This document shows, in pieces, positions 1-34,987 of a DNA stretch of 64,000 nt; position 1 is the first letter of the stretch; the number at the start of each line of letters is the position of its first letter. Origin of the DNA: Actinomycetes bacterium (GTDB lineage Bacteria; Actinomycetota; Acidimicrobiia; Acidimicrobiales; JAJYXR01); NCBI GenBank assembly GCA_021801795.1, contig JAJYXR010000026.1:5051-69050 (forward strand), read 5' to 3'. The notes under the pieces are model-generated. The model was not told where the DNA came from and made no database searches. It saw only the letters and a list, made by a program, of their open reading frames with translations. Position numbers and translations under genes: made by a program.

Positions 1-266
1 GGTCGGGAGCGATGACCGGACCCCTGGTGGAGACCTACGAGGCGATGCCGTCTCCGAAGGTGGTGGTGGCCGCGGGAACCGACGCCCTGAGCGGGGGAAT
101 GCACGCGGGTAGCTACGCGACCACCGGGGGGGTTACGGCCAGCCTCCCAGTAGATGTGCTGGTGCCTGGCTCACCCCCGAGCCCGTTCAGCCTGCTTCAC
201 GGCATCCTGCTGGCAGTCGGCATCGTCGCCGACCGATCTGGTGGTGGGAAACAGCATGAGGGCTGA
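1..266 (+). CDS. NuoB/HycG-like small-subunit paralogue, C-terminal fragment (5' end outside window)
   Basis: The reading frame is open from the window edge. The fragment ...MPSPKVVVAAGTDALSGG...PVDVLVPGSPPSP aligns with the conserved NuoB/HycG C-terminus (MPePK..ia.GxCAxxGG ... PVDvyvPGCPP). Its paralogue at 29929-30402 keeps GDCA and PGCPP, whereas here the cysteines read D and S. The stop overlaps the ATG of the next gene. Confidence 0.6.
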   Translation, partial: SGAMTGPLVETYEAMPSPKVVVAAGTDALSGGMHAGSYATTGGVTASLPVDVLVPGSPPSPFSLLHGILLAVGIVADRSGGGKQHEG

Positions 267-2379
267 TCTGCTCATAGCGGCGCTCTGCTCATTCGCCTTC
301 GGTGGCATCTCGGACCTGGTGTTCGGAGCCGCGAGGCGCTCTACGGCCACGGTGCCCTATGTCGCGTCCATGGCCGGCAGCGCCTGCCTGCTCGCTCTGG
401 GCATCGACGCCTTCAGGTCGAGGCCGACGACCTTCGACCTCGGCAGCCTTCTCGGGGTGGGAACCACCTCGATGAGGGTGGGCCACCTGGCCGCTATATT
501 CCTCACCCTGCTCTTCGCTATAGGGGTGGCGACATCGGCCTGCAATGTCTCCTGGTCCCGCAGGACGGCTCGGGTCGCGTCACGGGGCCTCGGAGCCGGG
601 TACTGCCTCCTTCTCGCATCGGTCGCTACGGTGATCGTCGCAGGCGACGCCTTCAGCTTCCTCTTCGCCTGGGAGTCACTCGCGCTCAGCTTCTTCGTGC
701 TGAGCTCCTCGGGAAGGCGGAGCGAGTCCCAGGCGACCGCGAGTTGGATGACCCTCGGCTTCGCCAAGCTCGGCGGTGCCTCCCTGCTCATTGGTTTCCT
801 CCTCCTCGCGGGCGCCAGTGGCCACTTCACCATCGCCCAGTGGCACTACGTGCGCTCGGCTGACATCCGCGACGTGGCCTGGGTGCTGGTGGTGATCGGC
901 TTCGGGACGAAGCTGGGGCTTGCCCCCTTCCAGGGATGGATGCCGCGTGGATACACCGCTGCGCCTCCCGCCGCGCGCGCGGCCATGGCCGGCATCGGGG
1001 CGAACGTCGGCGTGTACGGGTTGTGGCGTTTCCTCTCGGTCCTCGGATCTCCTCCGGTGTGGCTGGCGGTGTCCGTGATGCTTGCCGGTGGGATCACCGC
1101 CCTGGTGGGTATCGCCTTCGCAGGCGTGCAGCCTCGGCTGTCCGGCGTCATCGCCTACTCGAGCGTGGAGAACGGGGGGATCATCATCGCGGCCTACGGG
1201 ATAGCTCTCGGAGGTGCCGCGGCTCACTCGCCGGAGCTGGAGGCCGTGGGGTTGCTGGCGGCCAGCCTCCATGTGGTCGCCCATGCGCTCGCGAAGTCCA
1301 CCCTGTTCAGCTCCGCGCAGGGCATAGAGGAAGCGGCCGGCAGCGACGAGCTGGACGAGCTCTCGGGAGCGGGCAGGGCGTTGCCGCTCACCGGCGCCGC
1401 CTTCAGCGCCGGTGCGCTCGCGCTGGCAGGGCTGCCGCCGACGGTGGGCTTCGTGTCCGAATGGTTCATCTTCGAGGCCCTGATGCAGCAGTTCAGGCTC
1501 CAGGGCCTCGCACTGCGCCTCGGCATGGCCGGGGCCGGTGCCCTGATAGCCCTTACCTCGGGTCTGGCTGCACTCACCTTCGTGCGCCTCCTCGGGCTGA
1601 CCATCCTCTCGAAGCGATCACCGAAGCTCGCCGGGGCGAGCGTCCGGCGTTCAGGCCTGGCCGGAAGGGCCGGCCTCAGCGCTCTCGGCCTATCCTGCCT
1701 GGCGGTGGCCGCCGTCACGCCCTTGGAGATTCGCCTGCTGGCAGACGGGCTGTCCGGGCTCGTTCCCGCCTCGATCACACGCCGGGCGCTTGCTTCTGCC
1801 TGGGTCCTCCAGCCCGTCTACTCCCACTTCTCCATCCTCTCGCCCTCCTGGCTCTGGGTCGCCATGCCGCTGGCCTTCTCAGTGGTCCTCGTCATGGCCA
1901 CCCTGGCCTCCAGTGGTCGCTACCTGAGACCGAGACGTGTGCGAGCCTGGCGCTCTGCAGGACCAGGTGTGTCCGGACCGACTGCCTATGATCCCGACAC
2001 CTTCGCGAACCCGCTGCGCCACGTCCTCGCGAACGTGCTCGGGGCTCGCTACGAGGTGGTCATGATCGAACGATCCGACGCCGCCGAGCCGGCTCGGCAT
2101 CTGGGGGAGCCTGACGGTCTGGAGCGGTCCACGCTCCGGGAGGAGCCAGACGACCCAGCCCGTCTCGATGAGCGGCCGGGTGGCGGGAGCGCCCGCATCG
2201 AGTACCGGTCCTCGGTGGTGGAGCCGGTGGAGACCTACGTCTACAGGCCGGGGGTCCGAATCGGCCTGCTCGCCTCACGGGCGGTACGACGGCTCCAGTC
2301 TGGGCGTCTCGACGCCTACGTGGCCTACATGTTCGTCACCCTGCTCCTGCTGCTCGTGGTGGTGGCTACCGTGCACTGA
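256..2379 (+). CDS. HyfB/HycC/NuoL-like proton-conducting membrane subunit (Mrp antiporter-like)
   Basis: Polytopic membrane protein with the NuoL/HyfB signature region (FAWESLALSFFVL, GLAPFQGWMPRGY). The C-terminal part (RLDAYVAYMFVTLLLL) parallels the paralogue at 34984-36945. I chose the ATG at 256, which overlaps the upstream stop at 264-266, rather than the track start at 154. Confidence 0.85.
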   Translation: MRADLLIAALCSFAFGGISDLVFGAARRSTATVPYVASMAGSACLLALGIDAFRSRPTTFDLGSLLGVGTTSMRVGHLAAIFLTLLFAIGVATSACNVSWSRRTARVASRGLGAGYCLLLASVATVIVAGDAFSFLFAWESLALSFFVLSSSGRRSESQATASWMTLGFAKLGGASLLIGFLLLAGASGHFTIAQWHYVRSADIRDVAWVLVVIGFGTKLGLAPFQGWMPRGYTAAPPAARAAMAGIGANVGVYGLWRFLSVLGSPPVWLAVSVMLAGGITALVGIAFAGVQPRLSGVIAYSSVENGGIIIAAYGIALGGAAAHSPELEAVGLLAASLHVVAHALAKSTLFSSAQGIEEAAGSDELDELSGAGRALPLTGAAFSAGALALAGLPPTVGFVSEWFIFEALMQQFRLQGLALRLGMAGAGALIALTSGLAALTFVRLLGLTILSKRSPKLAGASVRRSGLAGRAGLSALGLSCLAVAAVTPLEIRLLADGLSGLVPASITRRALASAWVLQPVYSHFSILSPSWLWVAMPLAFSVVLVMATLASSGRYLRPRRVRAWRSAGPGVSGPTAYDPDTFANPLRHVLANVLGARYEVVMIERSDAAEPARHLGEPDGLERSTLREEPDDPARLDERPGGGSARIEYRSSVVEPVETYVYRPGVRIGLLASRAVRRLQSGRLDAYVAYMFVTLLLLLVVVATVH

Positions 2380-2395: not shown

Positions 2396-2860
2396 TCAGC
2401 GCTGCTCGGCGGAACAGGTGGCCTTCACCCGGCCGCCCGCGGGGTACATGCGGAGCAGGTGATTCCAGGCGCACCCGGGGCAGACCTCGACCACGTAGCA
2501 GGCCACTTCCTCGGTGCGCCTGCAGAGCCGTTCGAGCTCTCTCCGGGTAGCAGGGCAGCGCCCCTGGGCCGGTAGCCGCCGGCCGAAGACGTAGGTGACG
2601 TGTACGAGCTGTGCCTCCTCGCATATGGGGCAGCTCTCCCCGAGAGGCGTGCCTATGTTCCGGGCTGCCCGGAGTAGCTCGGGGTGGGCATCGCAGACGT
2701 CCAGGCGCGACAGGCGGCCCTTACGGTACTGGCTGACCACGGCGTTACGCGCGAGGCGGTACTCGACCCTGCCTTCCGTCCCCCTCGCTGGAAGCGCCTG
2801 GAGCGTCCGGGAATCCCCCTTCACATGCCCGACGCTAGTCGCTGGCAGGGGGCACGGCAC
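2396..2860 (-). CDS. DUF5318-like small Cys-rich protein, conserved neighbour of ino1 in actinobacteria
   Basis: The ORF begins 7 nt downstream of the ino1 stop on the same strand. It carries CPIC and CPGC pairs (zinc-ribbon-like). The family name comes from recalled synteny, not a search. The start (GTG at 2860 or an internal GTG about 12 codons in) is uncertain. Confidence 0.6.
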   Translation of the reverse strand: MPCPLPATSVGHVKGDSRTLQALPARGTEGRVEYRLARNAVVSQYRKGRLSRLDVCDAHPELLRAARNIGTPLGESCPICEEAQLVHVTYVFGRRLPAQGRCPATRRELERLCRRTEEVACYVVEVCPGCAWNHLLRMYPAGGRVKATCSAEQR

Positions 2861-2867
2861 GGCGATG

Positions 2868-3980
2868 TCAGTTCTCGGGCCAGGTGGGCCCCGGCTCTCC
2901 TGCCGCGAACTGCTCCACCAGCACCCGAGCCTCGTCGTCGTGGTACTGGACGGGGGGAGATTTCATGAAGTACGCGCAGGGCCCCACGAGAGGGCCGCCT
3001 ATCCCCCGGTCGAGCGCGAGCTTCGCGCAGCGAACAGCGTCGATGATGACCCCGGCAGAGTTAGGCGAGTCCCACACCTGGAGCTTCAGCTCCACCTCCA
3101 TGGGCACGTCACCGAAGTTCCGACCCTCCATGCGTATGTGGGCCCACTTCCGGTCCGCCAGCCATGGCACGTGATCGGACGGGCCGATGTGCACGTCATC
3201 CGCTGGCAGGATGGTGTTCTCGATCTGACTGGTGACCGCCTGGGTCTTCGAGATCTTCTTCGACTCCAGCCTCTGGCGCTCCAGCATGTTCATGAAGTCC
3301 ATGTTCCCGCCGAAGTTCAGCTGGTAGGTGTGATCGAGGGCGACCCCCCTGTCCTCGAAGAGCCTGGTCAGGACTCTGTGCACGATGGTTGATCCGACCT
3401 GGCTCTTTATGTCGTCACCCACTATGGGAATCCCCGCATCCCTGAAGCGGCGCGCCCAGGTGGGGTCCGATGCGATGAAGACCGGTATGGCATTCACGAA
3501 GGCCACCTCTGCCTCCAGGCAGGCCTCGGCGTAGTGGCGCTGGGCCTCCTCCGAGCCGACCGGGAGGTAGCTCACGAGAACGTCCGCCTTCGCCTCCACC
3601 AGGGCTCTGGCTATGTCAACCGGCTCCGCCGGCGACTCCTCGATCATCGTGCGGTAGTACTGCCCCAGACCGTCGAGGGTGGGGCCGCGCTGGACGGTGA
3701 CGTCCAGGTGACCTACCGGTGAGAACCGGATGGTGTTGTTCTGGCCGGCGAACACGGCCTTGGATAGGTCGACACCGACCTTCGTGGCGTCGACGTCGAA
3801 AGCAGCTACCGGCTCCACGTCGCCCACGTGGTAGCCGCCGAGGCTCACGTGCATTAGGCCTGGCACCTGGTCGGCTGGGTCCGCGTTCCGGTAGTACTCG
3901 ATCCCCTGGACGAGGGAGCTGGCGCAGTTGCCCACTCCGGCTATCGCCACGCGTACCTTCCTGCCTAGGTCTCTGCTCAT
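2868..3980 (-). CDS. ino1: myo-inositol-1-phosphate synthase
   Basis: 370 aa. The N-terminus [22 protein letters not shown] (NAD-binding) and overall similarity match actinobacterial Ino1. A GGAGGGA ribosome-binding site lies upstream. Confidence 0.95.
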
Positions 3981-4037
3981 GGGGTTTCTCCCTCCGTGAT
4001 TGTTCTCGGTCGTTCAGCTCTCATCGGGTGTCTGCGT

Positions 4038-4080
4038 CCTAACTGCTCCGCGCCTAACTGCTCCGCGCCTCACTGCTCTG
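4038..4080. repeat. 15-bp tandem repeat, about 2.7 copies (CCTAACTGCTCCGCG), spanning the padR stop codon
   Basis: Copies start at 4038, 4053 and 4068; the third is a variant, CCTCACTG. The padR stop (cta at 4054-4056 on the plus strand) lies in copy 2. Confidence 0.85.
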
Positions 4081-4752
4081 GCGGGGATGGGGCTGCTGGG
4101 ACGGCTGGTCGGCCGGTCCCGAGGAAGCCGCCGAGCGTTCGGCGTCGATCAGGTGGTCGAGCCAGGAGATGTCCTTCTCGGCCACCTCGGCAGTGTGCTC
4201 CACCAGGCTGAGCGCGTAGGAGTCGAGCAGATCGGCGGAGGCCGCGGAGCGCGCCTTGCTCAGCAGCTCTGCCATGTGGGCCCTACGGCGCTCGAGCAGG
4301 CGGATGCGCGACTGGGGTGGCAGGTGGCGGGCGAAGGCCAGCCGGAGACCGAAGAGCCTCGCGTCGTCCCCGGAGCCTCTGGCTTCTTCGTCGAGGAGCT
4401 TCACGAAGAGCCTCCGACCGTAGTCGGTGATCCTGTAGACCTTACGGGCGCGACGCTGCTTCGTGGTGGCGGAGATCCTGGAGCGCAGAGCAGCTCTCTC
4501 TCCGGAGAGCGAGCCGGTCATGGGAACGGGAATATGAGCTGGCGAGCCGGACGAGCCAGGGTCGGGCATCACCTCGAGCGCCCCGCTCTTCTCCAGGCGG
4601 TTCAGCGCCGGGTAGAGCGAGCCGTAGGAGACGTTCGAGAGTATGCCCAGCTCGTCGCGCAGCCGGCGGCGGATCTCGTAACCGTGCATGTCCCGCTCGG
4701 AGAGCAGGCCGAGTATGGCCAGCTCAAGCACAGCGGTATGCCTCAGGGGCAT
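4054..4752 (-). CDS. PadR family transcriptional regulator
   Basis: The N-terminal winged helix LELAILGLLSERDMHGYEIRRRL...SYGSLYPALNRLEKSG is the typical PadR signature. Its position next to ino1 matches M. tuberculosis Rv0047c. Confidence 0.9.
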   Translation of the reverse strand: MPLRHTAVLELAILGLLSERDMHGYEIRRRLRDELGILSNVSYGSLYPALNRLEKSGALEVMPDPGSSGSPAHIPVPMTGSLSGERAALRSRISATTKQRRARKVYRITDYGRRLFVKLLDEEARGSGDDARLFGLRLAFARHLPPQSRIRLLERRRAHMAELLSKARSAASADLLDSYALSLVEHTAEVAEKDISWLDHLIDAERSAASSGPADQPSQQPHPRQSSEARSS

Positions 4753-4800
4753 CGCCGGGCTCCCCCGGGCAGAGGCGGCTTCGGGTAAGGGTCGTGCCCA

Positions 4801-4830
4801 TGCCGGTGCCGGTGCCGGTGCCGGTGCCGC
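4801..4830. repeat. Hexanucleotide microsatellite (TGCCGG)x4 plus TGCCGC, upstream of padR
   Basis: Read directly at 4801-4830, in the padR-cca spacer about 50 bp upstream of the padR start. Confidence 0.9.
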
Positions 4831-4889
4831 CCATGCCTGTGCAGACTGTAGTCATTACCGATGTATCGTAGCGATATATCTAGCCGTAG

Positions 4890-6338
4890 TCAAGTCGAGC
4901 GGGAGGCCCACCAGGCGTCGAGGCGCCGGTAGGCCTCCTGCTCGCCGAGAGGTCCTTCGTCGAGCCTGAGATCGAGCAGGAACTCGAGCGCCTCGCCGAC
5001 GGCACGCCCGGGCCTGATCCCCAGGTGCTCCATGACCTGGTTGCCGTCGAGGTCGGGGCGGATGGCATCGAGCTCCTCCAGGCTCCTCAGCTCGGTGATA
5101 CGCGATTCGAGCTCGTCCATCCGCTCGGCGAGCTCACGGGCCTTCGCGGCGTTACGGGTGGTGCAGTCGCACCTGGTGAGCTCGTTCAGCCTCTCCAGGA
5201 GCGGACCAGCATCACGCACGTAGCGCCTCACCGCGCGGTCGCTCCAGCCGAGCCGGTAGGTGTGGAACCTCAGGTGGAGCTCGACGAGGGTGCTCACCAC
5301 CTCGATGTCCTCCCCGGAATAGTGCAGTGCCTTCATGCGGTCACGAGCCATCCGGCTGCCGACCACGTCGTGGTGATGGAAGCTCACGCCCTCTGGACCA
5401 TAGGAGCGAGTTCTGGGCTTTCCTATGTCATGGAGCAGGGCGGCGAGGCGCAGCAGCCTGTCGGGGCTGGCTTTGTCGACCACCGCAAGGGTGTGGGCGA
5501 GCACGTCCTTGTGCCGCTGGATGGGGTCCTGCTCCAGCTCGAGCGCGGGCAGCTCGGGCAGGAACTCGTCCGCGAGACCGGTTCTCACCAGGAACCACAG
5601 ACCCGGTGAGGGCTTGGGCACGACGAGCAGGCGATCGAGCTCGTCGCGTATGCGCTCGGGGGAGACTATTGCGAGCCTCTCGTGGAGGCTCTCCGCGGCC
5701 GCCACCAGCTCCGGCACCGGCTCGAAGCCGAAGCCCGCGATGAAGCGGGCGGCCCTCATCATCCTGAGGGGGTCGTCCGAGAAGGACTCCTCTGGGGTGA
5801 GCGGGGTCCGCAGGCGACCCGCGGCGAGGTCCTCCAGCCCTCCCCAGGGATCGATCAGCTCCATGCCGGGCATCCGGAGAGCCATCGCGTTCACCGTGAA
5901 GTCGCGCCTGGAGAGGTCCACCTCGATGGAGTCCCCGAAGAGAACCTCCGGCTTGCGGCTGTCTGACCTGTATGTCTCCACCCGGTGGGTGGTGATCTCG
6001 TAGCGCCTGGAGCGTCGCATGCAGCCGATGGTTCCGTAGAGCTTGCCCTGGAGCCAGACGGCGTCGGCCCATGGGGTCACTATCTCCTCGATGGCCTCCG
6101 GACGGGCATCGGTGGTCAGGTCGATGTCGGTCTGGTAGAGCTCCTGGCCGGCCTGAGCGGCACTCCTCGGCGGAGACGACGGACTCGACGAAGGCGAGGA
6201 AGGCGCGCCGGGGCTCTTAGCGAGTATGGCATCGCGAACCGAGCCACCGACGATGTAGAGGCTGTAGCCGGCCGCGGCGAAACGCCGCGCCAGCTCCTCG
6301 GTGGCCTCGGCTAGAGGCTTCACGCGCTCTGGGATCAT
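4890..6338 (-). CDS. cca: CCA tRNA nucleotidyltransferase / poly(A) polymerase family with HD domain
   Basis: YIVGGSVRDAIL nucleotidyltransferase motif, DFTVNAMA and RMMRAARF motifs, and a C-terminal HD region (LLHDIGKP). Synteny with M. tuberculosis pcnA (Rv3907c). Confidence 0.9.
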   Translation of the reverse strand: MIPERVKPLAEATEELARRFAAAGYSLYIVGGSVRDAILAKSPGAPSSPSSSPSSPPRSAAQAGQELYQTDIDLTTDARPEAIEEIVTPWADAVWLQGKLYGTIGCMRRSRRYEITTHRVETYRSDSRKPEVLFGDSIEVDLSRRDFTVNAMALRMPGMELIDPWGGLEDLAAGRLRTPLTPEESFSDDPLRMMRAARFIAGFGFEPVPELVAAAESLHERLAIVSPERIRDELDRLLVVPKPSPGLWFLVRTGLADEFLPELPALELEQDPIQRHKDVLAHTLAVVDKASPDRLLRLAALLHDIGKPRTRSYGPEGVSFHHHDVVGSRMARDRMKALHYSGEDIEVVSTLVELHLRFHTYRLGWSDRAVRRYVRDAGPLLERLNELTRCDCTTRNAAKARELAERMDELESRITELRSLEELDAIRPDLDGNQVMEHLGIRPGRAVGEALEFLLDLRLDEGPLGEQEAYRRLDAWWASRST

Positions 6339-12925: not shown

Positions 12926-13911
12926 GCATCGAACCACTCTCGACGCTCCCTCTCGCCATAGGCAGCGATGGGGATGCTGTCGCCGACCTCCAGAGGCGGC
13001 TCTCCGCGCTCGGGTTCTCCACTGCACCTGATCCGGCTGCTACCTTCGGTCCTGGAACCCGGGCCGGGGTCGAGGCCTTCCAGCACGCCAGGGGGCTGCG
13101 TATAGACGGGGTCTGTGGTCCCCAGACCTGGTCGGCGCTTGTCGAGGCGGGGTTGCGCCTGGGTGACCGGCTCTTGTACCGGCGCCAGCCGATGCTGAGG
13201 GGGGACGACGTAGCCGACCTCCAGAGGCGGCTCTCCGCGCTCGGGTTCGACACCGGTCGGGTGGACGGCATATTCGGTCCGCTGACTGCTACCGCTCTGG
13301 CCGAGCTCCAGAGGAACCTTGGCCTGCCTCCTGACGGAATATGCGGCAGGAGCACCCTCTCGGAACTGTTCAGGGTGATGCCCCGCCATGGAGACCCGGA
13401 GCTGGTGACCACCGTGCGAGACCGGGAACTCTTGCGCCAGTCTCCCCGCACGATAGCTAATCGCAGAGTCGCTGTCGGAGAGGAGGGGGGCCTCGATGTG
13501 ATGGTGGCTTCTATCACGCGACATCTGAGTGGATCCGGCGCCGAGGTTATCCCTGTCTGGCACCCCGACGGGTCGGCTCAGGCCTCTATTGCGAACCTGG
13601 CCAGAGCAGACGTCTACATAGGATTGAGGCTCGACCACCAGTCACGCTGCTGCAAGGTCGCGTACTACGCCGGATACCGTTACGAGTCTCCTGGAGGGAA
13701 GCGGCTGGCAGAGTCGGTGATGCATCATGTGTCAGAGGCTCTGGATATAACCGGGTCCGTGAGAGGCATGTCGGTGCCGGTGTTGAGAGAGACCCAGATG
13801 CCCGCTGTCATCTGCGAGGTGGGCTCTGCCTCCGACGTGGTCAGAAGAGGCCCGGAGCTGTCCGCTGCGGTGTCGACCGCTGTAGCCGCCTGGGCAGAGT
13901 CCCCTCTGTGA
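12922..13911 (+). CDS. CwlM-like protein: two PG_binding_1-type repeats plus a degenerate Amidase_3 domain (5' boundary unresolved)
   Basis: The frame is open from 12790. Two repeats (GDAVADLQRRLSALGF... and GDDVADLQRRLSALGF...) are followed by an amidase_3-like domain ending at 13911. The first ATG/GTG/TTG in frame is the TTG at 13153, which would remove repeat 1. The start given (CTG at 12922, overlapping the trxA TGA) is a guess. Synteny with Rv3915 cwlM. Confidence 0.7.
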   Translation: MSIEPLSTLPLAIGSDGDAVADLQRRLSALGFSTAPDPAATFGPGTRAGVEAFQHARGLRIDGVCGPQTWSALVEAGLRLGDRLLYRRQPMLRGDDVADLQRRLSALGFDTGRVDGIFGPLTATALAELQRNLGLPPDGICGRSTLSELFRVMPRHGDPELVTTVRDRELLRQSPRTIANRRVAVGEEGGLDVMVASITRHLSGSGAEVIPVWHPDGSAQASIANLARADVYIGLRLDHQSRCCKVAYYAGYRYESPGGKRLAESVMHHVSEALDITGSVRGMSVPVLRETQMPAVICEVGSASDVVRRGPELSAAVSTAVAAWAESPL

Positions 13912-29928: not shown

Positions 29929-30402
29929 TTAACGCAATGTGGTGGCCCGCCCTGCCAGTCCGCTGCTCGCCAGGGCATCGAGGATCTGCTCAGGGGTCGG
30001 GGGGCAGCCGGGAATCCTGACGTCGACCGGCAGCAGGTGCTCCAGCGGGCCGGCGAGATCCCGATGGTCGCCGAGCACCCCTAGCCCCATGGCGCAGTCG
30101 CCCAATGCGGCGACCAGGCGTGGTTCGGGCATTGCCTGGTACGCACTGAGGAGGGGGATGACCATCCGGCTAGTGATGGCCCCCGTTATCAACAGGACGT
30201 CAGCGTGCCTGGGTGAGGCCGTAATGGTGATGCCGTGACGCGAGAGATCGTAGAAGAGATTGGCAGTGGCGCCGAGCTCGTGCTCGCAGGCATTGCACGA
30301 GCCTGCGTCCACATGCCGCACGGCCAGTGAGAGCCGTCTGGCGGGGCGGGCTATCCCGGCAGTCTTACGGTCGCTGTGGAGCTGGCGCAGTAGGACGAAC
30401 AT
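29929..30402 (-). CDS. Group-4 [NiFe]-hydrogenase small subunit (HycG/NuoB-like)
   Basis: 157 aa with all four Fe-S ligand positions present (GSCNACE, GDCA, PGCPP). The ATG at 30402 is preceded by AGGAGG. The track ORF start at 30675 overlaps hycE. Confidence 0.85.
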   Translation of the reverse strand: MFVLLRQLHSDRKTAGIARPARRLSLAVRHVDAGSCNACEHELGATANLFYDLSRHGITITASPRHADVLLITGAITSRMVIPLLSAYQAMPEPRLVAALGDCAMGLGVLGDHRDLAGPLEHLLPVDVRIPGCPPTPEQILDALASSGLAGRATTLR

Positions 30403-30419
30403 GGTAGGGCCTCCTGGCT

Positions 30420-31988
30420 CTAGCGATCCGAGCAGGCGTAGCAGAGCTCGAAGCTCTTGTTCACGAGCGGGAAGTCCGGCAGGAGGTTCCCGGCCGTGGC
30501 ATGAGCTACTGCCGGCCAGTTGGCGTATGAGGCGGTGCGGAGGTGGAGCCGCTGGATGGTGGTTCCGTCGGACTCGACGATGCAGGTGGTCGCGCCGCGC
30601 GGGCCTTCCACGACGCCGACGCCGACGGGTGATCCCTCCGCGACAGCACCGGCCGTGGCATCGTGGAGGTCGCACCTCAGGAGGGTGTCGAGAAGCGCCA
30701 GCGTCGTCTCGAGCTCGGCTGCCCGTAGAGCCATGCGGGCAGCGACGTCACCCGTGGGGTCCACCGGGCTCGGCGGCTGGAGCTCCCTGTAGTCGAGCCG
30801 TGGGCTCTCGGAGCGGGTATCGGCAGGTATGCCCGAGGCGCGTGCCGCCGGGCCTACGGTGCCGAAGCGTGCAGCGCTGGAGGCATCGAGGACTCCGACT
30901 GCCGTGACCCGGTTCTGCACCGAGGTATTGAACAACACCTCTCGCCAGGAACGCATCGAATCCTCCCCGATCGAGCGGAGCTCCTGGCGCGCCTCGCGTC
31001 TCTCCCCACCTGCCAGGCAGAAGGCGCCCTTGGCGATCTGTATGGTGCCGAACATGAAACGGTGACCGGTGAGGCGACCGATGAGGCGCTGGGCTCTCTC
31101 CTTCAGGGCGGCGAACGCCATGGTGCCCGGTGCGAACCCGATACCGGCGCATATCGCGCCGATGTCGTTCAGATGGTTGTACAGGCGCTCCAGCTCTACT
31201 AGAACCGTGCGCTGGGTCTTCAGGGCGGCATCGGGCCAGAGCCCGAGCACCTCCTCGCAGGCCTGCGCGAAGGCCAGGGTGTTCGAGACGGCGCAGGCCC
31301 CGCAGGCACGCTGGACGATGGCAAGCCCCGTGTCGAGCGGGGCACCCACGGCAGCTCGCTCGAGACCCCGGTGGTTGTAGAACAGTCGCAGATCCAAATG
31401 CAGCACGCGCTCGCCGACCACGTGGAACCGGAAGTGCCCGGATTCGATCACCCCGGCGTGTATGGGTCCGACGGCCACTTGATGGGTGCCGGCTCCCACC
31501 ACGGGCACGGTCCAGGACTTGAGGCAATCCGAGTGGCTGATGAGGGGGCGCATCGGCACGTGGCCTGCGAAGTCCACCCCGTAGAGATCGTGTGCCTCGC
31601 GCTCATCCCACGCTGCGGCCGGAAGGATGTCGACGATGCTGGGGAACGTCCAGCCGGATCCAGAGGCGCCGGTTACAGAGGCGCCGGCTGGAGCTGCAGA
31701 CGCGCCCGCTAGGGAGGCCCCGGCACCTCGCAGCTCGCCCGACCGGCCTGGAACTGCCCGTGCCGAGAGCACCTTTACCTGGTCTCCGAAGCTGAAGACG
31801 CTCCTGATCGTGGTACCGGTCTCGTCGCGGCCAGCGCGGTCGCTGCATCTGGCTTCATCAGGTCCGACGGCATAGAGGCCCCTGAAGCGCCCACCACTGT
31901 GTATGGCTGAGTCATGTGCCTCGCGCCACGAGGAGGGCGTGGTCTGCACCAGGGTGGTGCCAGGGTTCTGCGGGGCGCTCTTGGTCAC
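30420..31988 (-). CDS. hycE: Group-4 [NiFe]-hydrogenase large subunit, fused NuoC-NuoD type (HycE-like)
   Basis: NuoC-like N-terminus (ERE.HDLYGVDFAGH). NuoD/large-subunit body with the N-terminal ligand pair RACGAC and the C-terminal pair ELCYACSDR directly followed by stop. The GTG at 31988 overlaps the upstream stop (GTGA). Confidence 0.9.
   Translation of the reverse strand: MTKSAPQNPGTTLVQTTPSSWREAHDSAIHSGGRFRGLYAVGPDEARCSDRAGRDETGTTIRSVFSFGDQVKVLSARAVPGRSGELRGAGASLAGASAAPAGASVTGASGSGWTFPSIVDILPAAAWDEREAHDLYGVDFAGHVPMRPLISHSDCLKSWTVPVVGAGTHQVAVGPIHAGVIESGHFRFHVVGERVLHLDLRLFYNHRGLERAAVGAPLDTGLAIVQRACGACAVSNTLAFAQACEEVLGLWPDAALKTQRTVLVELERLYNHLNDIGAICAGIGFAPGTMAFAALKERAQRLIGRLTGHRFMFGTIQIAKGAFCLAGGERREARQELRSIGEDSMRSWREVLFNTSVQNRVTAVGVLDASSAARFGTVGPAARASGIPADTRSESPRLDYRELQPPSPVDPTGDVAARMALRAAELETTLALLDTLLRCDLHDATAGAVAEGSPVGVGVVEGPRGATTCIVESDGTTIQRLHLRTASYANWPAVAHATAGNLLPDFPLVNKSFELCYACSDR
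31661..31690. repeat. 15-bp tandem duplication inside the hycE NuoC-NuoD linker
   Basis: CAGAGGCGCCGGTTA followed by CAGAGGCGCCGGCTG, with a further degenerate copy. It encodes part of the Gly/Ala/Ser linker GAGASLAGASAAPAGASVTGASGSG. Confidence 0.75.
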
Positions 31989-33451
31989 GAGGCCCACCTC
32001 ACGATTGCCTCCACCAGGAAGGAGCCAGGCAGGACGAACGCGAGGGACACGAGTGCCGACAGGGTGGCAGCACCGAACCCTGCCAGAACTCCGGCGGCAT
32101 GACGGGAGCGGGTCCCAACACGATGCCTCCGCCCCCCGAGGAGGCCTTCGAGCAGGGCGTGGAGCAGCCCGAGGAACCCCAGTGCCAATAGCAGGGCCGC
32201 CAGGCTTGCCGCGAGCACCTGGCCCGCGAGGAATCCACCCAGGAGGATGAAGAGCTCGCTGAAGAACAGCGGTGAAGGGGGCACCCCGCCCAGGGTTCCC
32301 AAGCTGAGGGCGAAGGAACTGGCCAGCGCAGGGCTCGACATCGCGAGGCCACGTACCGGCAGCTTCGCCGCGCTCGGGCGGCTGGCCAGCAGTGGAGTCG
32401 CTGTGTAGAACCCGAGTGCCTTCGCGCCAGCGTGGGCAGCCACATGCAGCACGACACCGGCAATCGCCAGTGGAGTCCCGAAGCCTATCCCCAGGGCGAT
32501 GATGCCCATGTGCTCCAGGCTCGAGTATGCGAGCAGGCGCTTCAAAGGCATGGGTCGCCAGAGGAACGGAACGGCCACGGCCAGCGACAGGAGGCCGAAG
32601 CCGATGAACAGGTAGGAAGCGGTGTTCCCTCCCAGGGCAGGCCCGAGGGCTATCTTCACCCGCCAGGCCACGAGCATGACGGTCGGTAGCAGCGCAGCGG
32701 AAAGCAAGGCACTCACCGGCGGTGGCGACTCGCTGTGCGCGTCCGGTAGCCAGTTGTGAACCGGGGCCCAACCTATCTTGGCAGCGAACCCAGCCATCAT
32801 CATGAAGAAGGAGACCAGTACGACATCGCGCGGGATGTGCCTGGCGAGCCGCGACAGAGCAGTCCAACCGAGGGCTCCGAGACCGGGGTCGTGAGCGGAT
32901 GCGTAGACCACGAGGATCCCCAGCAGCGCCACCGTGAGGCCTGCGGTGGTCAATATGAGGTACTTCCATCCCGCCTCGAGAGCGCTGCGTTTCCCGCTGA
33001 AGGCCACCAGGGGCGCGGACGCGGCAGTGGTCGCCTCCACGAGGAGCCAGGCCAGCCCAAGGTTCCCTGCCAGCGGTACGGCGAGCAGGGCAGCCCAGAA
33101 GCAGTAGAAGCCCAGGTAGTACCAGCGCCTCGAACGCTGGGGCGAGAAGAAGCTCCTCGTGGTGCCGTCAAGGAATCTCGGTGACAGCAAGGCGCTTGCC
33201 ATGCCTACGAGCGAGGTGACGCAGAGGAAGACCACGGCCACCGGGTCGATGGTGAGCAGCCCCGTAGTGGCGGCTGGACGCAGCCACAGGTCCATGCCCC
33301 CGAGGCTGAGACCGGCGCCAGCGGTGGTCAGCGCGAAGACCCGGTTCAGGTGGTCACCGACGTGGTCGTCCGCGAAGAGCTGGATGATCAGTCCACCGGC
33401 CAGGGGCAGGAGCACCACCAGCATGGCGAGATCGGTAAGATGGTCAATCAC
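31985..33451 (-). CDS. NuoN/NuoM-like proton-conducting membrane subunit (HyfF/HycQ-like)
   Basis: Polytopic protein with the PF00361-type core (GWAPVHNWLPDAHSESPPPVSALLSAALL). The GTG at 33451 overlaps the upstream gene by 8 nt. An alternative start is the ATG at 33424. Confidence 0.85.
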   Translation of the reverse strand: MIDHLTDLAMLVVLLPLAGGLIIQLFADDHVGDHLNRVFALTTAGAGLSLGGMDLWLRPAATTGLLTIDPVAVVFLCVTSLVGMASALLSPRFLDGTTRSFFSPQRSRRWYYLGFYCFWAALLAVPLAGNLGLAWLLVEATTAASAPLVAFSGKRSALEAGWKYLILTTAGLTVALLGILVVYASAHDPGLGALGWTALSRLARHIPRDVVLVSFFMMMAGFAAKIGWAPVHNWLPDAHSESPPPVSALLSAALLPTVMLVAWRVKIALGPALGGNTASYLFIGFGLLSLAVAVPFLWRPMPLKRLLAYSSLEHMGIIALGIGFGTPLAIAGVVLHVAAHAGAKALGFYTATPLLASRPSAAKLPVRGLAMSSPALASSFALSLGTLGGVPPSPLFFSELFILLGGFLAGQVLAASLAALLLALGFLGLLHALLEGLLGGRRHRVGTRSRHAAGVLAGFGAATLSALVSLAFVLPGSFLVEAIVRWAS

Positions 33452-34061
33452 GCAGGCCCCGCAGGACGGTCGCGTCACCGCTCCCGAACTCGCGGAAGAT
33501 GCGATCGTGGAAGGCGGTTGCGACACTCAGGACGATGACGACGTCGAATATCACGCCCAGGTCGATGACTATGGGCATCCCCCCGGCCACCACGGTGGCG
33601 GCGAAGGCGATTCCGTTCTCGGCTACCAGGAGGCCGAGCACCTGGAACAGTGTCGCCTTGCGGACTATGGCGGTAGTTATGCCGATCACCACGAGGGCGA
33701 CCGTGGCGTGCTCCTGCGAGAGGCTCGGCAGCCCGAACCTCGGCACGAGTGCAGCGGCCGTGATGGCTACTGCCGCTGCGACCGCGAGTCGGACCGGCGC
33801 AGCGAGAGCCTCGGTGATGGGGCGGTCCTGACGGGTCCTGTGGACGCTCCACCCGAGGATGGCGGCTATGAAGACAGCCTTTGCGAGCAGCGCCAGGGCT
33901 GACGACATGAACTCAGTGGAGCGATGAGATGCTTCCAGCAGGGCCAGGAGTGCGATTAGGAGCGACTGGGTGGCGACGAGGGCGATCGCAGTCGAGCGGC
34001 GTCGGACCACTGTCACTGCGAGGGCCAGGGCGATCACCATCCAGCCGACCGCGCCCGTCAT
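33444..34061 (-). CDS. HyfE/HycP-like (NuoK-related) membrane subunit
   Basis: 205-aa hydrophobic protein. Its ATG overlaps the hycD stop (ATGA). Its position matches HycP in the M. tuberculosis Rv0085 locus. Confidence 0.8.
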   Translation of the reverse strand: MTGAVGWMVIALALAVTVVRRRSTAIALVATQSLLIALLALLEASHRSTEFMSSALALLAKAVFIAAILGWSVHRTRQDRPITEALAAPVRLAVAAAVAITAAALVPRFGLPSLSQEHATVALVVIGITTAIVRKATLFQVLGLLVAENGIAFAATVVAGGMPIVIDLGVIFDVVIVLSVATAFHDRIFREFGSGDATVLRGLRD

Positions 34062-34987
34062 GGTCGGGCTCCTATGAACCAGGTGACGAACCCGGCCAGC
34101 GCTATGGCGGTGCCTGCCCCGAGAAGGCGCGGTACGGCCAGAAGGCGCATCTTGGCCTGCCATGTCTCTATGACGGCCAGCAGCACGCACCAGAGGGGCA
34201 GCCCGACGAGCTCCGAGAGCAGCTGTGGGATCATCCCGTGTGCATGTGGTAGGAAGATCTCGACAGTCAGGACGAACATGATCCAGTGACGTGCCGCGGC
34301 CGACCACTGGAGCATCGCCAGGTCCCGCCCCGCGTACTCCAGCAGCGGTCCTTCGTGGATCATCGTCAGTTCCAGATGCGTGTCGGGGTTGTCGATGGGC
34401 TGGCGCCCCGTCTCGGCGAGCACCACCAGGCCGAATGCCCCAAGAGCGCACCAGCGCAAAGCACCGCCCCATCCCGCGAGCCCGCTGGTCGTGGCCATCA
34501 GGGTTCCGAGATCGGTCGAGTGGGAAGGGAGAGCCACCAGCACCAGGACGGCGAGCAGCATGCCTTCGACGAGCGCTGCGAAGGTGAGGTCCCGGCTCGC
34601 GCCCATGAGAGCGAAGCCGCTGCCCGTGTCCCATGCAGCCAGAGCCAGCGAGAAGCGTGCCAGGGCGAGCAGGCCGACGAGAACGAGCACGTCATGGCCC
34701 AAGGGGGACACCTCTTCGAAGGAAGTGGCGGGCACGACCACCACAGCAGCGAGCAGGGACACCGTGACTATAGGAGGGGCCAGCCGGTACACGACCCCGG
34801 ACCCATCCGGGTCGACGGTCGACTTGTGCCAGAGCCGGTTGAGCTCGCGGTATGGCTGCAGAGGCGATGGACCGGGGCGACCCTGGAGGCGAGCTTTAAC
34901 CGCCTGGATGATGCCGGGGAGGAGAGGGGCAGCGACCGTGCCCGCCGCCAACTCTACGAGAGTGGAGACCCACGCGTCCGGCATCAT
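34058..34987 (-). CDS. hycD: NuoH/HycD-like membrane subunit (formate hydrogenlyase subunit 4 family)
   Basis: 309 aa with NuoH-family motifs (LAETGRQPIDNPDTHLELTMIHEG, EYAGRDLA). The ATG overlaps the upstream stop (ATGA). Confidence 0.9.
   Translation of the reverse strand: MMPDAWVSTLVELAAGTVAAPLLPGIIQAVKARLQGRPGPSPLQPYRELNRLWHKSTVDPDGSGVVYRLAPPIVTVSLLAAVVVVPATSFEEVSPLGHDVLVLVGLLALARFSLALAAWDTGSGFALMGASRDLTFAALVEGMLLAVLVLVALPSHSTDLGTLMATTSGLAGWGGALRWCALGAFGLVVLAETGRQPIDNPDTHLELTMIHEGPLLEYAGRDLAMLQWSAAARHWIMFVLTVEIFLPHAHGMIPQLLSELVGLPLWCVLLAVIETWQAKMRLLAVPRLLGAGTAIALAGFVTWFIGARP

What the first reader, a model, noticed from the sequence alone, without database searches (positions are those of the whole stretch)
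1..2379. Second hydrogenase-like module whose NuoB-type subunit has lost Fe-S cysteine ligands (Ehr-like, probably not a hydrogenase)
The partial gene at the window start aligns residue for residue with the C-terminus of the HycG-like subunit at 29929-30402. It reads GTDA instead of GDCA and PGSPP instead of PGCPP. Two of the four cysteines that hold the proximal [4Fe-4S] cluster in NuoB and [NiFe] small subunits are therefore replaced by Asp and Ser.

The gene is translationally coupled to a HyfB/NuoL-type antiporter subunit with the same C-terminal architecture as the one in the canonical cluster.

Loss of redox-cofactor ligands in an otherwise complex-I-like module is the hallmark of the poorly understood energy-converting-hydrogenase-related (Ehr) complexes, whose substrates are unknown.
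Basis: partly seen in the sequence, partly recalled or inferred. Interest (0 to 1): 0.6.

Follow-up and report, generated by a model that had tools for sequence, protein, structure and literature searches.

The report
Fluoride-switched hydrogenase-like complex without redox centres
The window opens inside a six-gene operon for a membrane complex that descends from hydrogenases and complex I but has lost its nickel-iron site and two of three iron-sulfur clusters; it sits behind a fluoride-sensing RNA switch, so it is probably a fluoride-stress ion translocator and not a hydrogenase.

Summary
The partial gene at window 3-266 is the end of a 269-aa HycF-HycG (ferredoxin + NuoB-like) fusion. All four proximal-cluster cysteines are replaced, by Asp142, Glu145, Asp209 and Ser239.

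- **Large subunit:** the upstream partner lacks all four [NiFe] cysteines (Glu/Ala/Ser/Gly). By the published definition this is an Ehr-type complex, not a hydrogenase.
- **Ferredoxin half:** it keeps exactly one four-cysteine set.
- **Conservation:** these states are conserved, not decay. D142 and S239 are invariant in 121 homologues. dN/dS is 0.17-0.34. The six-gene order recurs in at least 55 loci, and at least 538 species genomes encode a relative, including cultured Streptomyces.
- **Membrane subunits:** they keep their charged ion-path residues.
- **New here:** contig C36 joins the start of C2. A variant fluoride aptamer with an extra hairpin lies just upstream of the first gene. It scores 62 bits with a model built without it, and its 3' strand can mask the ribosome-binding site. 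Aptamers precede the operon in 65 of 71 relatives. No crcB or hypD was found in this genome.

Most likely it is a fluoride-induced, redox-inert ion translocator. The substrate and driving force are inferred only.

The parts
3..266 (+). Last 87 codons of the 269-aa ferredoxin + NuoB/HycG-like fusion gene (Ehr small subunit). The full gene is C2:4507-5316, so its start lies 544 bases before the window.
   Evidence: ORF and translation. Pfam Oxidored_q6 E 1.7e-18 plus Fer4 single-cluster domains. PDB HycG E 1.7e-29 and MbhJ E 8.6e-25. Foldseek top hits 6cfw_J and 7z0s_G.
81..83 (+). Codon gac = Asp209, at the position of the third proximal-cluster cysteine (GTDA versus GDCA).
   Evidence: Asp in 120 of 121 homologues and Glu in 1.
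171..173 (+). Codon tca = Ser239, at the position of the fourth proximal-cluster cysteine (PGSPP versus PGCPP).
   Evidence: Ser in 121 of 121 homologues.
256..2379 (+). hyfB/NuoL-type antiporter-like subunit (707 aa), the last gene of the operon. Its ATG overlaps the small-subunit gene by 11 nt.
   Evidence: Pfam Proton_antipo_M E 6.8e-35. NCBIfam hydrogenase 4 subunit B, 362 bits, below the 667 cut-off. PDB HycC E 7e-37, MbhH, and MrpA/MrpD about 1e-22. It keeps WE (TM5), GFGTK (TM7), HALAKS (TM8) and GFVSEW (TM12).

Best explanation
The window begins inside the fifth gene of a six-gene operon. The gene order is hycD/NuoH-like, hyfE-like, hyfF/NuoN-like, NuoC+NuoD-like large subunit, HycF+HycG-like small-subunit fusion, and hyfB/NuoL-like. 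It encodes an Ehr-type complex, a descendant of group-4 membrane [NiFe]-hydrogenases.

Shown:
- The large subunit has none of the four Ni-Fe cysteines.
- The NuoB-like domain has none of the four cluster cysteines. Conserved Asp/Glu/Asp/Ser stand in their place.
- The ferredoxin domain keeps ligands for only one [4Fe-4S] cluster.
- The membrane subunits keep the charged residues of complex-I/Mrp-type ion paths.
- The operon has no redox-partner gene.
- A fluoride-riboswitch aptamer carrying an extra hairpin lies directly upstream of the first gene.

Inferred:
- Without fluoride, the aptamer's 3' strand pairs with the ribosome-binding site. Fluoride locks that strand into the pseudoknot and frees translation, so the complex is made under fluoride stress.
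- The complex cannot wire electrons to an active site. It therefore most likely acts as a redox-independent, Mrp-like proton/cation translocator that helps keep cytoplasmic pH and ion balance when HF influx acidifies the cell.
- The carboxylate-lined former N2/[NiFe] pocket would serve as a protonation or cation site coupled to the membrane arm.
- The remaining cluster would be structural or regulatory.
For: - **Gene set and coupling:**
- **Cysteine replacements:**
- **Conservation:** D142, E146, W147, E148 and S239 are 121/121. D209 is 120/121. Position 145 is Glu in 104 and Asp in 14. The four ferredoxin cysteines are 121/121.
- **Large-subunit motifs:** AERxEGxxSVAH occurs in 72 of 80 loci and GPVRSG[VI] in 73 of 80.
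- **Selection:** dN/dS is 0.17-0.34.
- **Synteny:** the order ABCDEF is seen in 55 of 80 loci plus the first 14. No conserved neighbour gene was found.
- **Spread:** at least 538 species genomes. The acidic family forms one clade nested among CCCC relatives.
- **Ion-path residues retained:**
- **Contig join:** C36 joins C2 by a 127-bp overlap, and hycD is the first gene, divergent from panB.
- **Aptamer:** the best RF01734 hit in the genome is C36:3200-3259 (23.6 bits). The structure with the inserted hairpin is 92.8% paired, and 0 of 500 shuffles reach it. Model R2, built without the own sequence, finds only C36:3194-3257 in the genome (62.2 bits, E 1.6e-14).
- **Aptamers in relatives:** 65 of 71 loci have one within 300 nt upstream of hycD, and 48 of these were outside the training set. 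Canonical RF01734 hits above the gathering score lie upstream of hycD in L005-L008.
- **Expression platform:** the minimum-energy fold pairs GCCUCUACG with CGUGGAGGC, which contains the GGAGG ribosome-binding site.
- **Literature:** 'formate hydrogen lyase' and Na+/H+ antiporters are among the commonest fluoride-riboswitch genes (PMC11139923 and PMC8004769).
Against: - No experiment exists on any member of this clade.
- A secondary antiporter does not obviously need a peripheral arm or an invariant [4Fe-4S] cluster.
- The direction and substrate of transport are unknown.
- The own aptamer is below Rfam's gathering score, and the variant with an inserted hairpin has not been shown to bind fluoride.
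- Position 145 and, in the wider family, position 239 vary (DVDS, DIDD and DDDA types). Only part of the carboxylate set is strictly required.
- The AF2 model is poor exactly at the former cluster loops (pLDDT below 50 at residues 143-165 and 210-221).
- Only 2 of 201 sampled genomes of the class carry the family, so it is accessory.
Confidence: 0.6

Rival explanations
1. It is still a redox enzyme with new chemistry. The retained [4Fe-4S] cluster would take electrons from ferredoxin or another donor. A non-cysteine metal site formed by Asp142/Glu145/Asp209/Ser239, plus the Glu that replaces the first Ni-Fe cysteine, would turn over an unknown substrate and drive ion pumping.
For: The four ferredoxin-domain cysteines are invariant in 121/121, and the replacement residues are conserved rather than random. 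The large-subunit Glu is present in all 72 motif-bearing loci.
Against: Two of the three clusters of the wire are missing, so no continuous path can be drawn from sequence. No donor or partner gene is conserved next to the operon. No His/Cys set typical of catalytic metal sites was seen. Which of the two HycF-type clusters survives could not be determined here.
Confidence: 0.15
2. The complex handles fluoride directly. It would export F- or HF, or bind a metal-fluoride species in the carboxylate-lined cavity, driven by the proton-motive force through the antiporter-like subunits.
For: The only fluoride aptamer found in this genome controls this operon. No CrcB/Fluc gene was found. Neither CLC homologue looks like a CLC-F or has an aptamer. 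The fluoride riboswitch itself binds F- through Mg2+, so a carboxylate-Mg-F site is chemically conceivable (established knowledge).
Against: Close relatives carry crcB right next to the operon, behind its own aptamer (L001 and L066), so the complex does not generally replace the exporter. The genome is 92% complete, so crcB may lie in a gap. No known anion-transport motif is present, and carboxylates alone repel F-.
Confidence: 0.12
3. It is a decaying, non-functional duplicate of the canonical group-4 hydrogenase operon in the same window.
For: A second, cysteine-complete cluster lies about 30 kb away. All redox ligands but one set are lost.
Against: There are no frameshifts or stops, and all junctions are tight or overlapping. 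dN/dS is 0.17-0.34. Replacement residues are invariant. The operon is conserved in hundreds of species and has a dedicated riboswitch. The small subunit is only 46% identical to the canonical copy and belongs to a separate clade.
Confidence: 0.02
4. It is a working [NiFe]-hydrogenase or formate hydrogenlyase, as such genes are usually annotated.
For: Homology to HycE/HycG/HycC. Source names such as 'Ni,Fe-hydrogenase III small subunit'.
Against: All four Ni-Fe ligands and the proximal cluster ligands are absent. No HypD maturation gene is in the genome. No formate dehydrogenase or HycB-like gene is in the operon.
Confidence: 0.01

Closest known systems
Ehr (energy-converting / Ech-hydrogenase-related) complexes, e.g. 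Geobacter sulfurreducens EhrA-D, L, S (GSU0739-45)
   Same: Group-4-hydrogenase-like subunit set with NuoL-like, HyfE-like, NuoH-like, large and small subunits. The large subunit lacks the CxxC Ni-Fe ligands. Function is unknown.
   Different: Here the small subunit is fused to a ferredoxin domain and has no proximal-cluster cysteines at all. Only one of three clusters remains, and the operon sits behind a fluoride aptamer. A sister copy in locus L005 keeps the small-subunit cysteines. The state of the Geobacter EhrS cysteines could not be checked.
E. coli formate hydrogenlyase Hyd-3 (PDB 7Z0S: HycC, D, E, F, G) and P. furiosus MBH (PDB 6CFW)
   Same: Best solved relatives of every subunit tested: HycG 1.7e-29, MbhJ 8.6e-25, MbhL 9.4e-32, HycE 2.2e-31, HycC 7e-37. 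Same NuoC-NuoD fusion as HycE.
   Different: No Ni-Fe ligands, no proximal cluster, one instead of two HycF clusters, HycF and HycG fused, no HycB/FdhF partner, and a second antiporter-like subunit plus HyfE as in Hyf.
Mrp-type multisubunit cation/proton antiporters (PDB 7D3U, 6Z16, 7QRU)
   Same: Two antiporter-like subunits with the conserved Glu/Lys/His/Lys/Glu set. MrpA and MrpD are hit at about 1e-22. Proposed here to work alike, without redox input.
   Different: Mrp has no NuoH-like subunit and no peripheral arm. MrpB/E/F/G homologues were not found in the operon. It may work like an Mrp but is not a member.
'Formate hydrogen lyase' genes listed among fluoride-riboswitch-controlled genes (Baker et al. 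2012, as cited in PMC11139923 and PMC8004769)
   Same: Hydrogenase-4/FHL-like membrane genes directly downstream of a crcB-motif RNA.
   Different: The reviews read them as FHL and as a shift to fermentative metabolism. The proteins here cannot be hydrogenases. The aptamer here is a variant with a hairpin inserted between P1 and P2.
Mycobacterium tuberculosis Rv0082-Rv0087 (hyc-like, called Ehr-related in PMC6728331)
   Same: Actinobacterial six-gene hyc/hyf-like cluster with the same six subunit types in a cyclically permuted order (gene order from my own knowledge; Ehr homology).
   Different: Not compared at sequence level here. It is regulated by Rv0081/DosR, not by a fluoride riboswitch (own knowledge).

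Membership tests
[quoted passage not shown]
   ERVEGVASVAH and SFGISIAGVAG: Cys is replaced by Glu, Ala, Ser and Gly. The same holds in 72 of 80 related loci.
Group 4 membrane-bound [NiFe]-hydrogenase | Small subunit with four cysteines for the proximal [4Fe-4S] cluster | tested here: not met
   Asp142, Glu145, Asp209 and Ser239.
Group 4 membrane-bound [NiFe]-hydrogenase | Hyp maturation machinery in the genome | tested here: not met
   No HypD (PF01924) match in the 92%-complete genome. The control genomes gave matches.
Ehr complex | Subunits homologous to group-4 hydrogenase / complex I core: NuoH-, NuoL/N-, HyfE-, NuoCD- and NuoB-like | tested here: met
   Pfam, NCBIfam and PDB matches for all six genes.
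Ehr complex | Large subunit lacks the conserved Ni-Fe-coordinating residues | tested here: met
   Definition taken from PMC6349859, PMC10284858 and PMC4758237.
Ehr complex | Phylogenetic placement next to group 4 (4f) hydrogenases on a reference large-subunit tree (HydDB-type classification) | not testable with these tools
   No labelled reference set or HydDB was available. Indirect evidence: the large subunit scores better against MbhL/HycE (about 1e-31) than against NuoD (about 1e-26). The small subunit nests among Cys-complete hydrogenase-type relatives.
Respiratory complex I (Nuo/NDH-1) | NuoD quinone head-group ligands (Tyr in the RxDY motif, His in the beta1-beta2 loop) and cluster N2 in NuoB | tested here: not met
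   Gly stands at the Tyr position (ERVEGVA versus DRMDYIS of 7q5y_B). Arg stands at the His position (GPVRSG). There are no N2 cysteines. A separate nuo cluster lies on contig C26.
Mrp antiporter | Seven-subunit MrpA-G set without a peripheral arm | tested here: not met
   Only MrpA/D-like folds are present. The operon also encodes NuoH-, NuoCD- and NuoB-like subunits.
Fluoride riboswitch (crcB motif, RF01734) | Match at or above Rfam's gathering score (34 bits) | tested here: not met
   23.6 bits at C36:3200-3259. This is nevertheless the best hit in the genome, E 2.9e-4. The Rfam model cannot place the inserted hairpin.
Fluoride riboswitch (crcB motif, RF01734) | P1, P2 and pseudoknot with the conserved core (GAUGxxG loop, AACYGCC, GCUGAUGxCYUCUAC) | tested here: met
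   P1 is CCGG/CCGG, P2 is GCCG/CGGC and the pseudoknot is GAGGC/GCCUC. The core letters are present. The structure is 92.8% paired with covariation in three helices. Model R2, built without the own sequence, scores it 62.2 bits.
Fluoride riboswitch (crcB motif, RF01734) | Binds fluoride and switches gene expression | not testable with these tools
   Needs in-line probing or a reporter assay. Only an alternative pairing that masks the ribosome-binding site was predicted.

The most novel reading that the evidence does not exclude
This actinobacterial clade may be a complex-I-type energy converter that runs with no electron-transfer chain. The conserved carboxylates at the former N2 site (Asp142, Glu145/146/148, Asp209) and the Glu at the former Ni-Fe site would replace the redox-switched charge. 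Protonation, or binding of a metal or metal-fluoride species, would trigger the membrane arm. In this genome no crcB was found and this operon carries the only fluoride aptamer, so the complex would then be the main fluoride defence. It would act by pumping protons out or by moving fluoride itself.
Probability: 0.15. Interest if true: 0.85.

Novelty: new variant of a known kind. Interest (0 to 1): 0.62.

Why it matters
- **Annotation and the fluoride literature.** Genes of this type are annotated as hydrogenase, NADH dehydrogenase or ferredoxin. Reviews of fluoride resistance treat the riboswitch-linked 'formate hydrogen lyase' as a fermentative enzyme (PMC11139923). This family cannot make hydrogen, so that reading of the fluoride regulon needs revising.
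- **A lead on Ehr function.** Ehr complexes have had no known function. A dedicated fluoride switch gives a concrete condition under which to test one. The family occurs in cultured Streptomyces, so the genetics are feasible.
- **Complex I mechanism.** A conserved complex-I-like machine has an intact membrane arm, but carboxylates replace N2 and the Ni-Fe/quinone site. This is a natural experiment on how charge changes in the peripheral arm drive the antiporter modules.
- **Riboswitch detection.** The aptamer variant with an inserted hairpin falls below Rfam's threshold. Fluoride regulons in Acidimicrobiales-type genomes are therefore probably under-counted.

Tried and rejected
- **Papers not held.** Marreiros et al. 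2013, Baker et al. 2012 and McIlwain et al. 2021 are not held. What they say is taken only from papers that cite them. I could not check whether cysteine-free NuoB-like subunits were already described for Ehr.
- **Rfam at gathering threshold.** It found no riboswitch on the own contigs. The sub-threshold hit and clade-specific models were needed.
- **Which HycF/NuoI cluster survives.** The distal N6a-type and medial N6b-type clusters could not be told apart. The papers read give the order of clusters but not their ligands, and the structure tool returns no coordinates.
- **CLC-F status of the two CLC homologues.** One is canonical (GREGP, with CBS domains). The other (GREGA) is closest to ClC-ec1-type structures. 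The result is inconclusive.
- **AF2 model of the small subunit.** It is only moderate (pLDDT 66) and poor at the former cluster loops. It was used only to confirm the fold class.
- **NCBIfam.** No curated family reaches its cut-off for any subunit.
- **Conserved partner genes.** None was found beyond the six genes. A universal-stress-protein-like gene follows the operon in 4 of 14 loci.
- **Rejected readings.** A pseudogene and a working hydrogenase are both rejected (see rivals).
Full report
**1. Where the window lies and what the gene is**

The window is C2:5051-69050 of a 2.5-Mb, 43-contig, high-GC genome. Reading 5 kb upstream on C2 shows six genes on the plus strand with overlapping or nearly abutting junctions:
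- hycD/NuoH-like, cut by the contig end, to C2:788
- hyfE-like, C2:785-1453
- hyfF/NuoN-like, C2:1464-2954
- a NuoC+NuoD-like large subunit, C2:2951-4507, 518 aa
- a 269-aa ferredoxin + NuoB-like fusion, C2:4507-5316, which is the partial gene at window 3-266
- a hyfB/NuoL-like gene, C2:5306-7429, which is window 256-2379

Pfam assigns NADHdh, Proton_antipo_M (twice), Complex1_49kDa plus Complex1_30kDa, and Oxidored_q6 plus single-cluster Fer4 domains. No NCBIfam model reaches its cut-off for any subunit.

**2. The observation**

BLASTP of the fusion protein against the canonical small subunit (window 29929-30402, minus strand) gives 46% identity over 124 ungapped residues, E 3e-33. GTDA aligns with GDCA and PGSPP with PGCPP, as reported. 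GSDGTEE also aligns with GSCNACE. All four ligands of the proximal [4Fe-4S] cluster are therefore replaced, by Asp142, Glu145, Asp209 and Ser239. The same columns align with HycG (7z0s_G) and MbhJ (6cfw_J).

The small-subunit stop (window 264-266) overlaps the hyfB-like ATG (256-258). The hyfB-like protein aligns with the canonical HyfB almost to its last residue.

**3. The partner subunits**

The large subunit reads ERVEGVASVAH where MbhL and HycE have RxCGxCxxxH. It ends SFGISIAGVAG where the canonical copy in this window ends SFELCYACSDR. All four Ni-Fe ligands are gone (Glu, Ala, Ser, Gly).

The complex I quinone ligands are absent as well. Gly stands at the Tyr position and Arg stands in GPVRSG at the His position.

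The ferredoxin half has the N-terminal signature of HycF/NuoI-type subunits (from my own knowledge). It keeps only CPTGAI plus CILCMRC. That is the CysPro of motif 1 and the CxxCxxC of motif 2, one complete four-cysteine set. Whether this is the distal or the medial cluster of the HycF fold could not be settled.

**4. A conserved state, not decay**

- In 121 homologues (57-66% identical to the query) D142, E146, W147, E148 and S239 are invariant. D209 is Asp in 120. Position 145 is Glu in 104 and Asp in 14. The four ferredoxin cysteines are invariant.
- Among 150 representatives of 50%-identity clusters the acidic family forms one clade of 45 rows (SH-aLRT 89; inner core 98). It is nested in a 76-row clade (99) that also holds Cys-complete relatives, among them the canonical subunit of this window. 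A few other lineages lost cysteines independently. In that wider set positions 145 and 239 vary more (DVDS, DIDD and DDDA types).
- dN/dS of the fusion gene between close pairs is 0.17-0.34.
- The six-gene order recurs in the first 14 loci and in 55 of 80 further loci. The rest are cut by contig ends or confused by C/F cross-hits.
- AERxEGxxSVAH is present in 72 of 80 loci and GPVRSG[VI] in 73 of 80.
- At least 538 species genomes encode a relative. Most are Acidimicrobiales, Pseudonocardiaceae, Streptosporangiaceae and Mycobacteriales MAGs, but four are cultured Streptomycetaceae.
- The family is patchy. Only 2 of 201 sampled genomes of the host's class have it.

**5. The membrane arm looks functional**

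The hyfB-like subunit keeps the TM5 Glu, TM7 Lys, TM8 His/Lys and TM12 Glu of antiporter-like subunits. It hits HycC, MbhH and MrpA/MrpD. By eye, the hyfF-like, hycD-like and hyfE-like proteins carry the corresponding motifs: IEVTT, [29 protein letters not shown] and FRSEF; IPVE...ELG...E...EHSG; and ENG (sequences).

**6. What Ehr means**

Papers that could be read define Ehr as group-4-related complexes whose large subunit lacks the Ni-Fe ligands, with unknown function. This operon meets that definition. The cysteine-free NuoB domain is an extra step. A second, tandem copy in locus L005 has a Cys-less large subunit but a Cys-complete small subunit. This suggests the Ni-Fe ligands were lost first. 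The primary Ehr paper was not available.

**7. The fluoride link**

Notes from earlier agents of this scan said that related Ehr operons sit behind fluoride riboswitches. I treated this as a lead and tested it.

- Contig C36 ends with the missing 5' part of hycD and overlaps C2 by 127 bp. hycD is the first gene of the operon and is divergent from panB.
- Rfam finds RF01734 above its gathering score directly upstream of hycD in L005, L006, L007 and L008.
- In the own genome the best RF01734 hit anywhere is C36:3200-3259, just before hycD, but at 23.6 bits.
- Inspection shows why the score is low. In this genome and in the Acidimicrobiales-type relatives the aptamer has P1 CCGG-AUGAGGCU-CCGG. 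An inserted hairpin of 11-25 nt with differing sequences follows. Then come AACYGCC...GGCUGAUGGCCUCUAC.
- On a 17-sequence alignment the four helices, pseudoknot included, are 92.8% paired against 32-56% when slid. There are changes on both sides in P1, the inserted helix and P2, and 0 of 500 shuffles reach the observed value.
- A covariance model built without the own sequence finds a single hit in the whole genome, C36:3194-3257, at 62.2 bits, E 1.6e-14.
- The model that includes the own sequence finds an aptamer within 300 nt upstream of hycD, on the same strand, in 65 of 71 loci with enough upstream DNA. Of these, 48 were not used for training.
- The minimum-energy fold of C36:3190-3320 pairs the aptamer's 3' strand GCCUCUACG with CGUGGAGGC. 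That stretch holds the GGAGG ribosome-binding site before the GTG at 3307. This is the layout of a translational ON switch.

Relatives form fluoride islands. crcB lies divergently behind its own aptamer in L001 and L066. Further aptamers lie elsewhere in locus L010, which also carries enolase and formate-tetrahydrofolate ligase genes.

In the own genome no CrcB was found. The two CLC homologues are not clearly CLC-F, and no second aptamer exists. The genome is 92% complete.

Reviews list 'formate hydrogen lyase' and Na+/H+ antiporters among the commonest riboswitch-controlled genes.

**8. Interpretation**

Shown:
- It is an Ehr-type operon.
- It has no Ni-Fe ligands and no proximal cluster.
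- One cluster is retained.
- The acidic replacements are conserved.
- The ion-path residues are intact.
- No partner gene is conserved.
- A fluoride aptamer lies upstream.

Inferred:
- The complex is made under fluoride stress.
- It cannot pass electrons to an active site.
- It most likely moves protons or cations without redox input, helping pH and ion homeostasis when HF acidifies the cytoplasm.
- The carboxylate-lined former N2/Ni-Fe pocket would act as a protonation or cation site.

Rivals:
- A new redox chemistry using the remaining cluster.
- Direct fluoride handling.
- A relic, which is rejected.
- A true hydrogenase, which is rejected.

One earlier bold reading of this kind, for a Bacteroidota clade, failed a later check on residue invariance. 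I therefore report the variability at positions 145 and 239 and keep the mechanistic confidence moderate.

**9. Limits**

- No expression data could be obtained.
- There is no labelled hydrogenase reference set.
- No structural coordinates were available.
- The AF2 model is poor at the former cluster loops. It confirms only the MbhJ/HycG/NuoB fold class.

Noticed in passing
G000 contig C36:3194-3257 (locus L111), outside the window and 5' of the operon: A fluoride-riboswitch aptamer variant with an extra hairpin of 11-25 nt (longer in some relatives) inserted between P1 and P2. It scores below Rfam's gathering threshold (23.6 versus 34 bits). It is conserved with covariation in Acidimicrobiales-type relatives.
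   Followed up: yes
window 29929-36945 (minus strand): The canonical, cysteine-complete group-4 hydrogenase cluster has no ferredoxin subunit. The genome has no detectable HypD, so even this copy may not be matured as a [NiFe] enzyme. No fluoride aptamer was found in the window.
   Followed up: partly
whole genome G000: No CrcB/Fluc homologue was detected in a 92%-complete genome. Two CLC homologues exist (C37:13182-14219, GREGP type with CBS domains; C13:20435-21865, GREGA type). Neither is clearly a CLC-F or is preceded by an aptamer.
   Followed up: partly
L005:12956-20783: One relative carries a second, tandem Ehr operon with its own fluoride aptamers (12956-13013 and 13605-13664). Its large subunit also lacks the Ni-Fe cysteines, but its small subunit keeps all four cluster cysteines. 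It may be an intermediate state.
   Followed up: partly
L002:8808-9272, L005:13095-13538, L013:12778-13344, L014:12931-13371: A universal-stress-protein-like gene follows hyfB in 4 of the first 14 related loci. In L005 it sits directly behind a fluoride aptamer.
   Followed up: no
L001:914-1543 and L066:150-772: crcB lies divergently upstream of the Ehr operon behind its own, oppositely oriented fluoride aptamer. Two aptamers therefore face away from each other in one intergenic region.
   Followed up: partly
L010:1843-5095: A fluoride aptamer on the minus strand precedes a formate-tetrahydrofolate ligase gene, followed by enolase. The pair lies next to the Ehr operon of a Solirubrobacteraceae MAG, and four more aptamer hits lie elsewhere in the same 20-kb locus.
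   Followed up: no
G000 C36 3' end / C2 5' end: The two contigs overlap by exactly 127 bp inside hycD. The assembly break is therefore probably a k-mer artefact and not a real gap.
   Followed up: yes
window 2396-6338 (minus strand): Downstream of the operon lie a small Cys-rich conserved ORF, myo-inositol-1-phosphate synthase, a PadR-family regulator and a CCA-adding enzyme. By memory this resembles the Rv0046c-Rv0047c neighbourhood of mycobacteria. They are not part of the operon.
   Followed up: no
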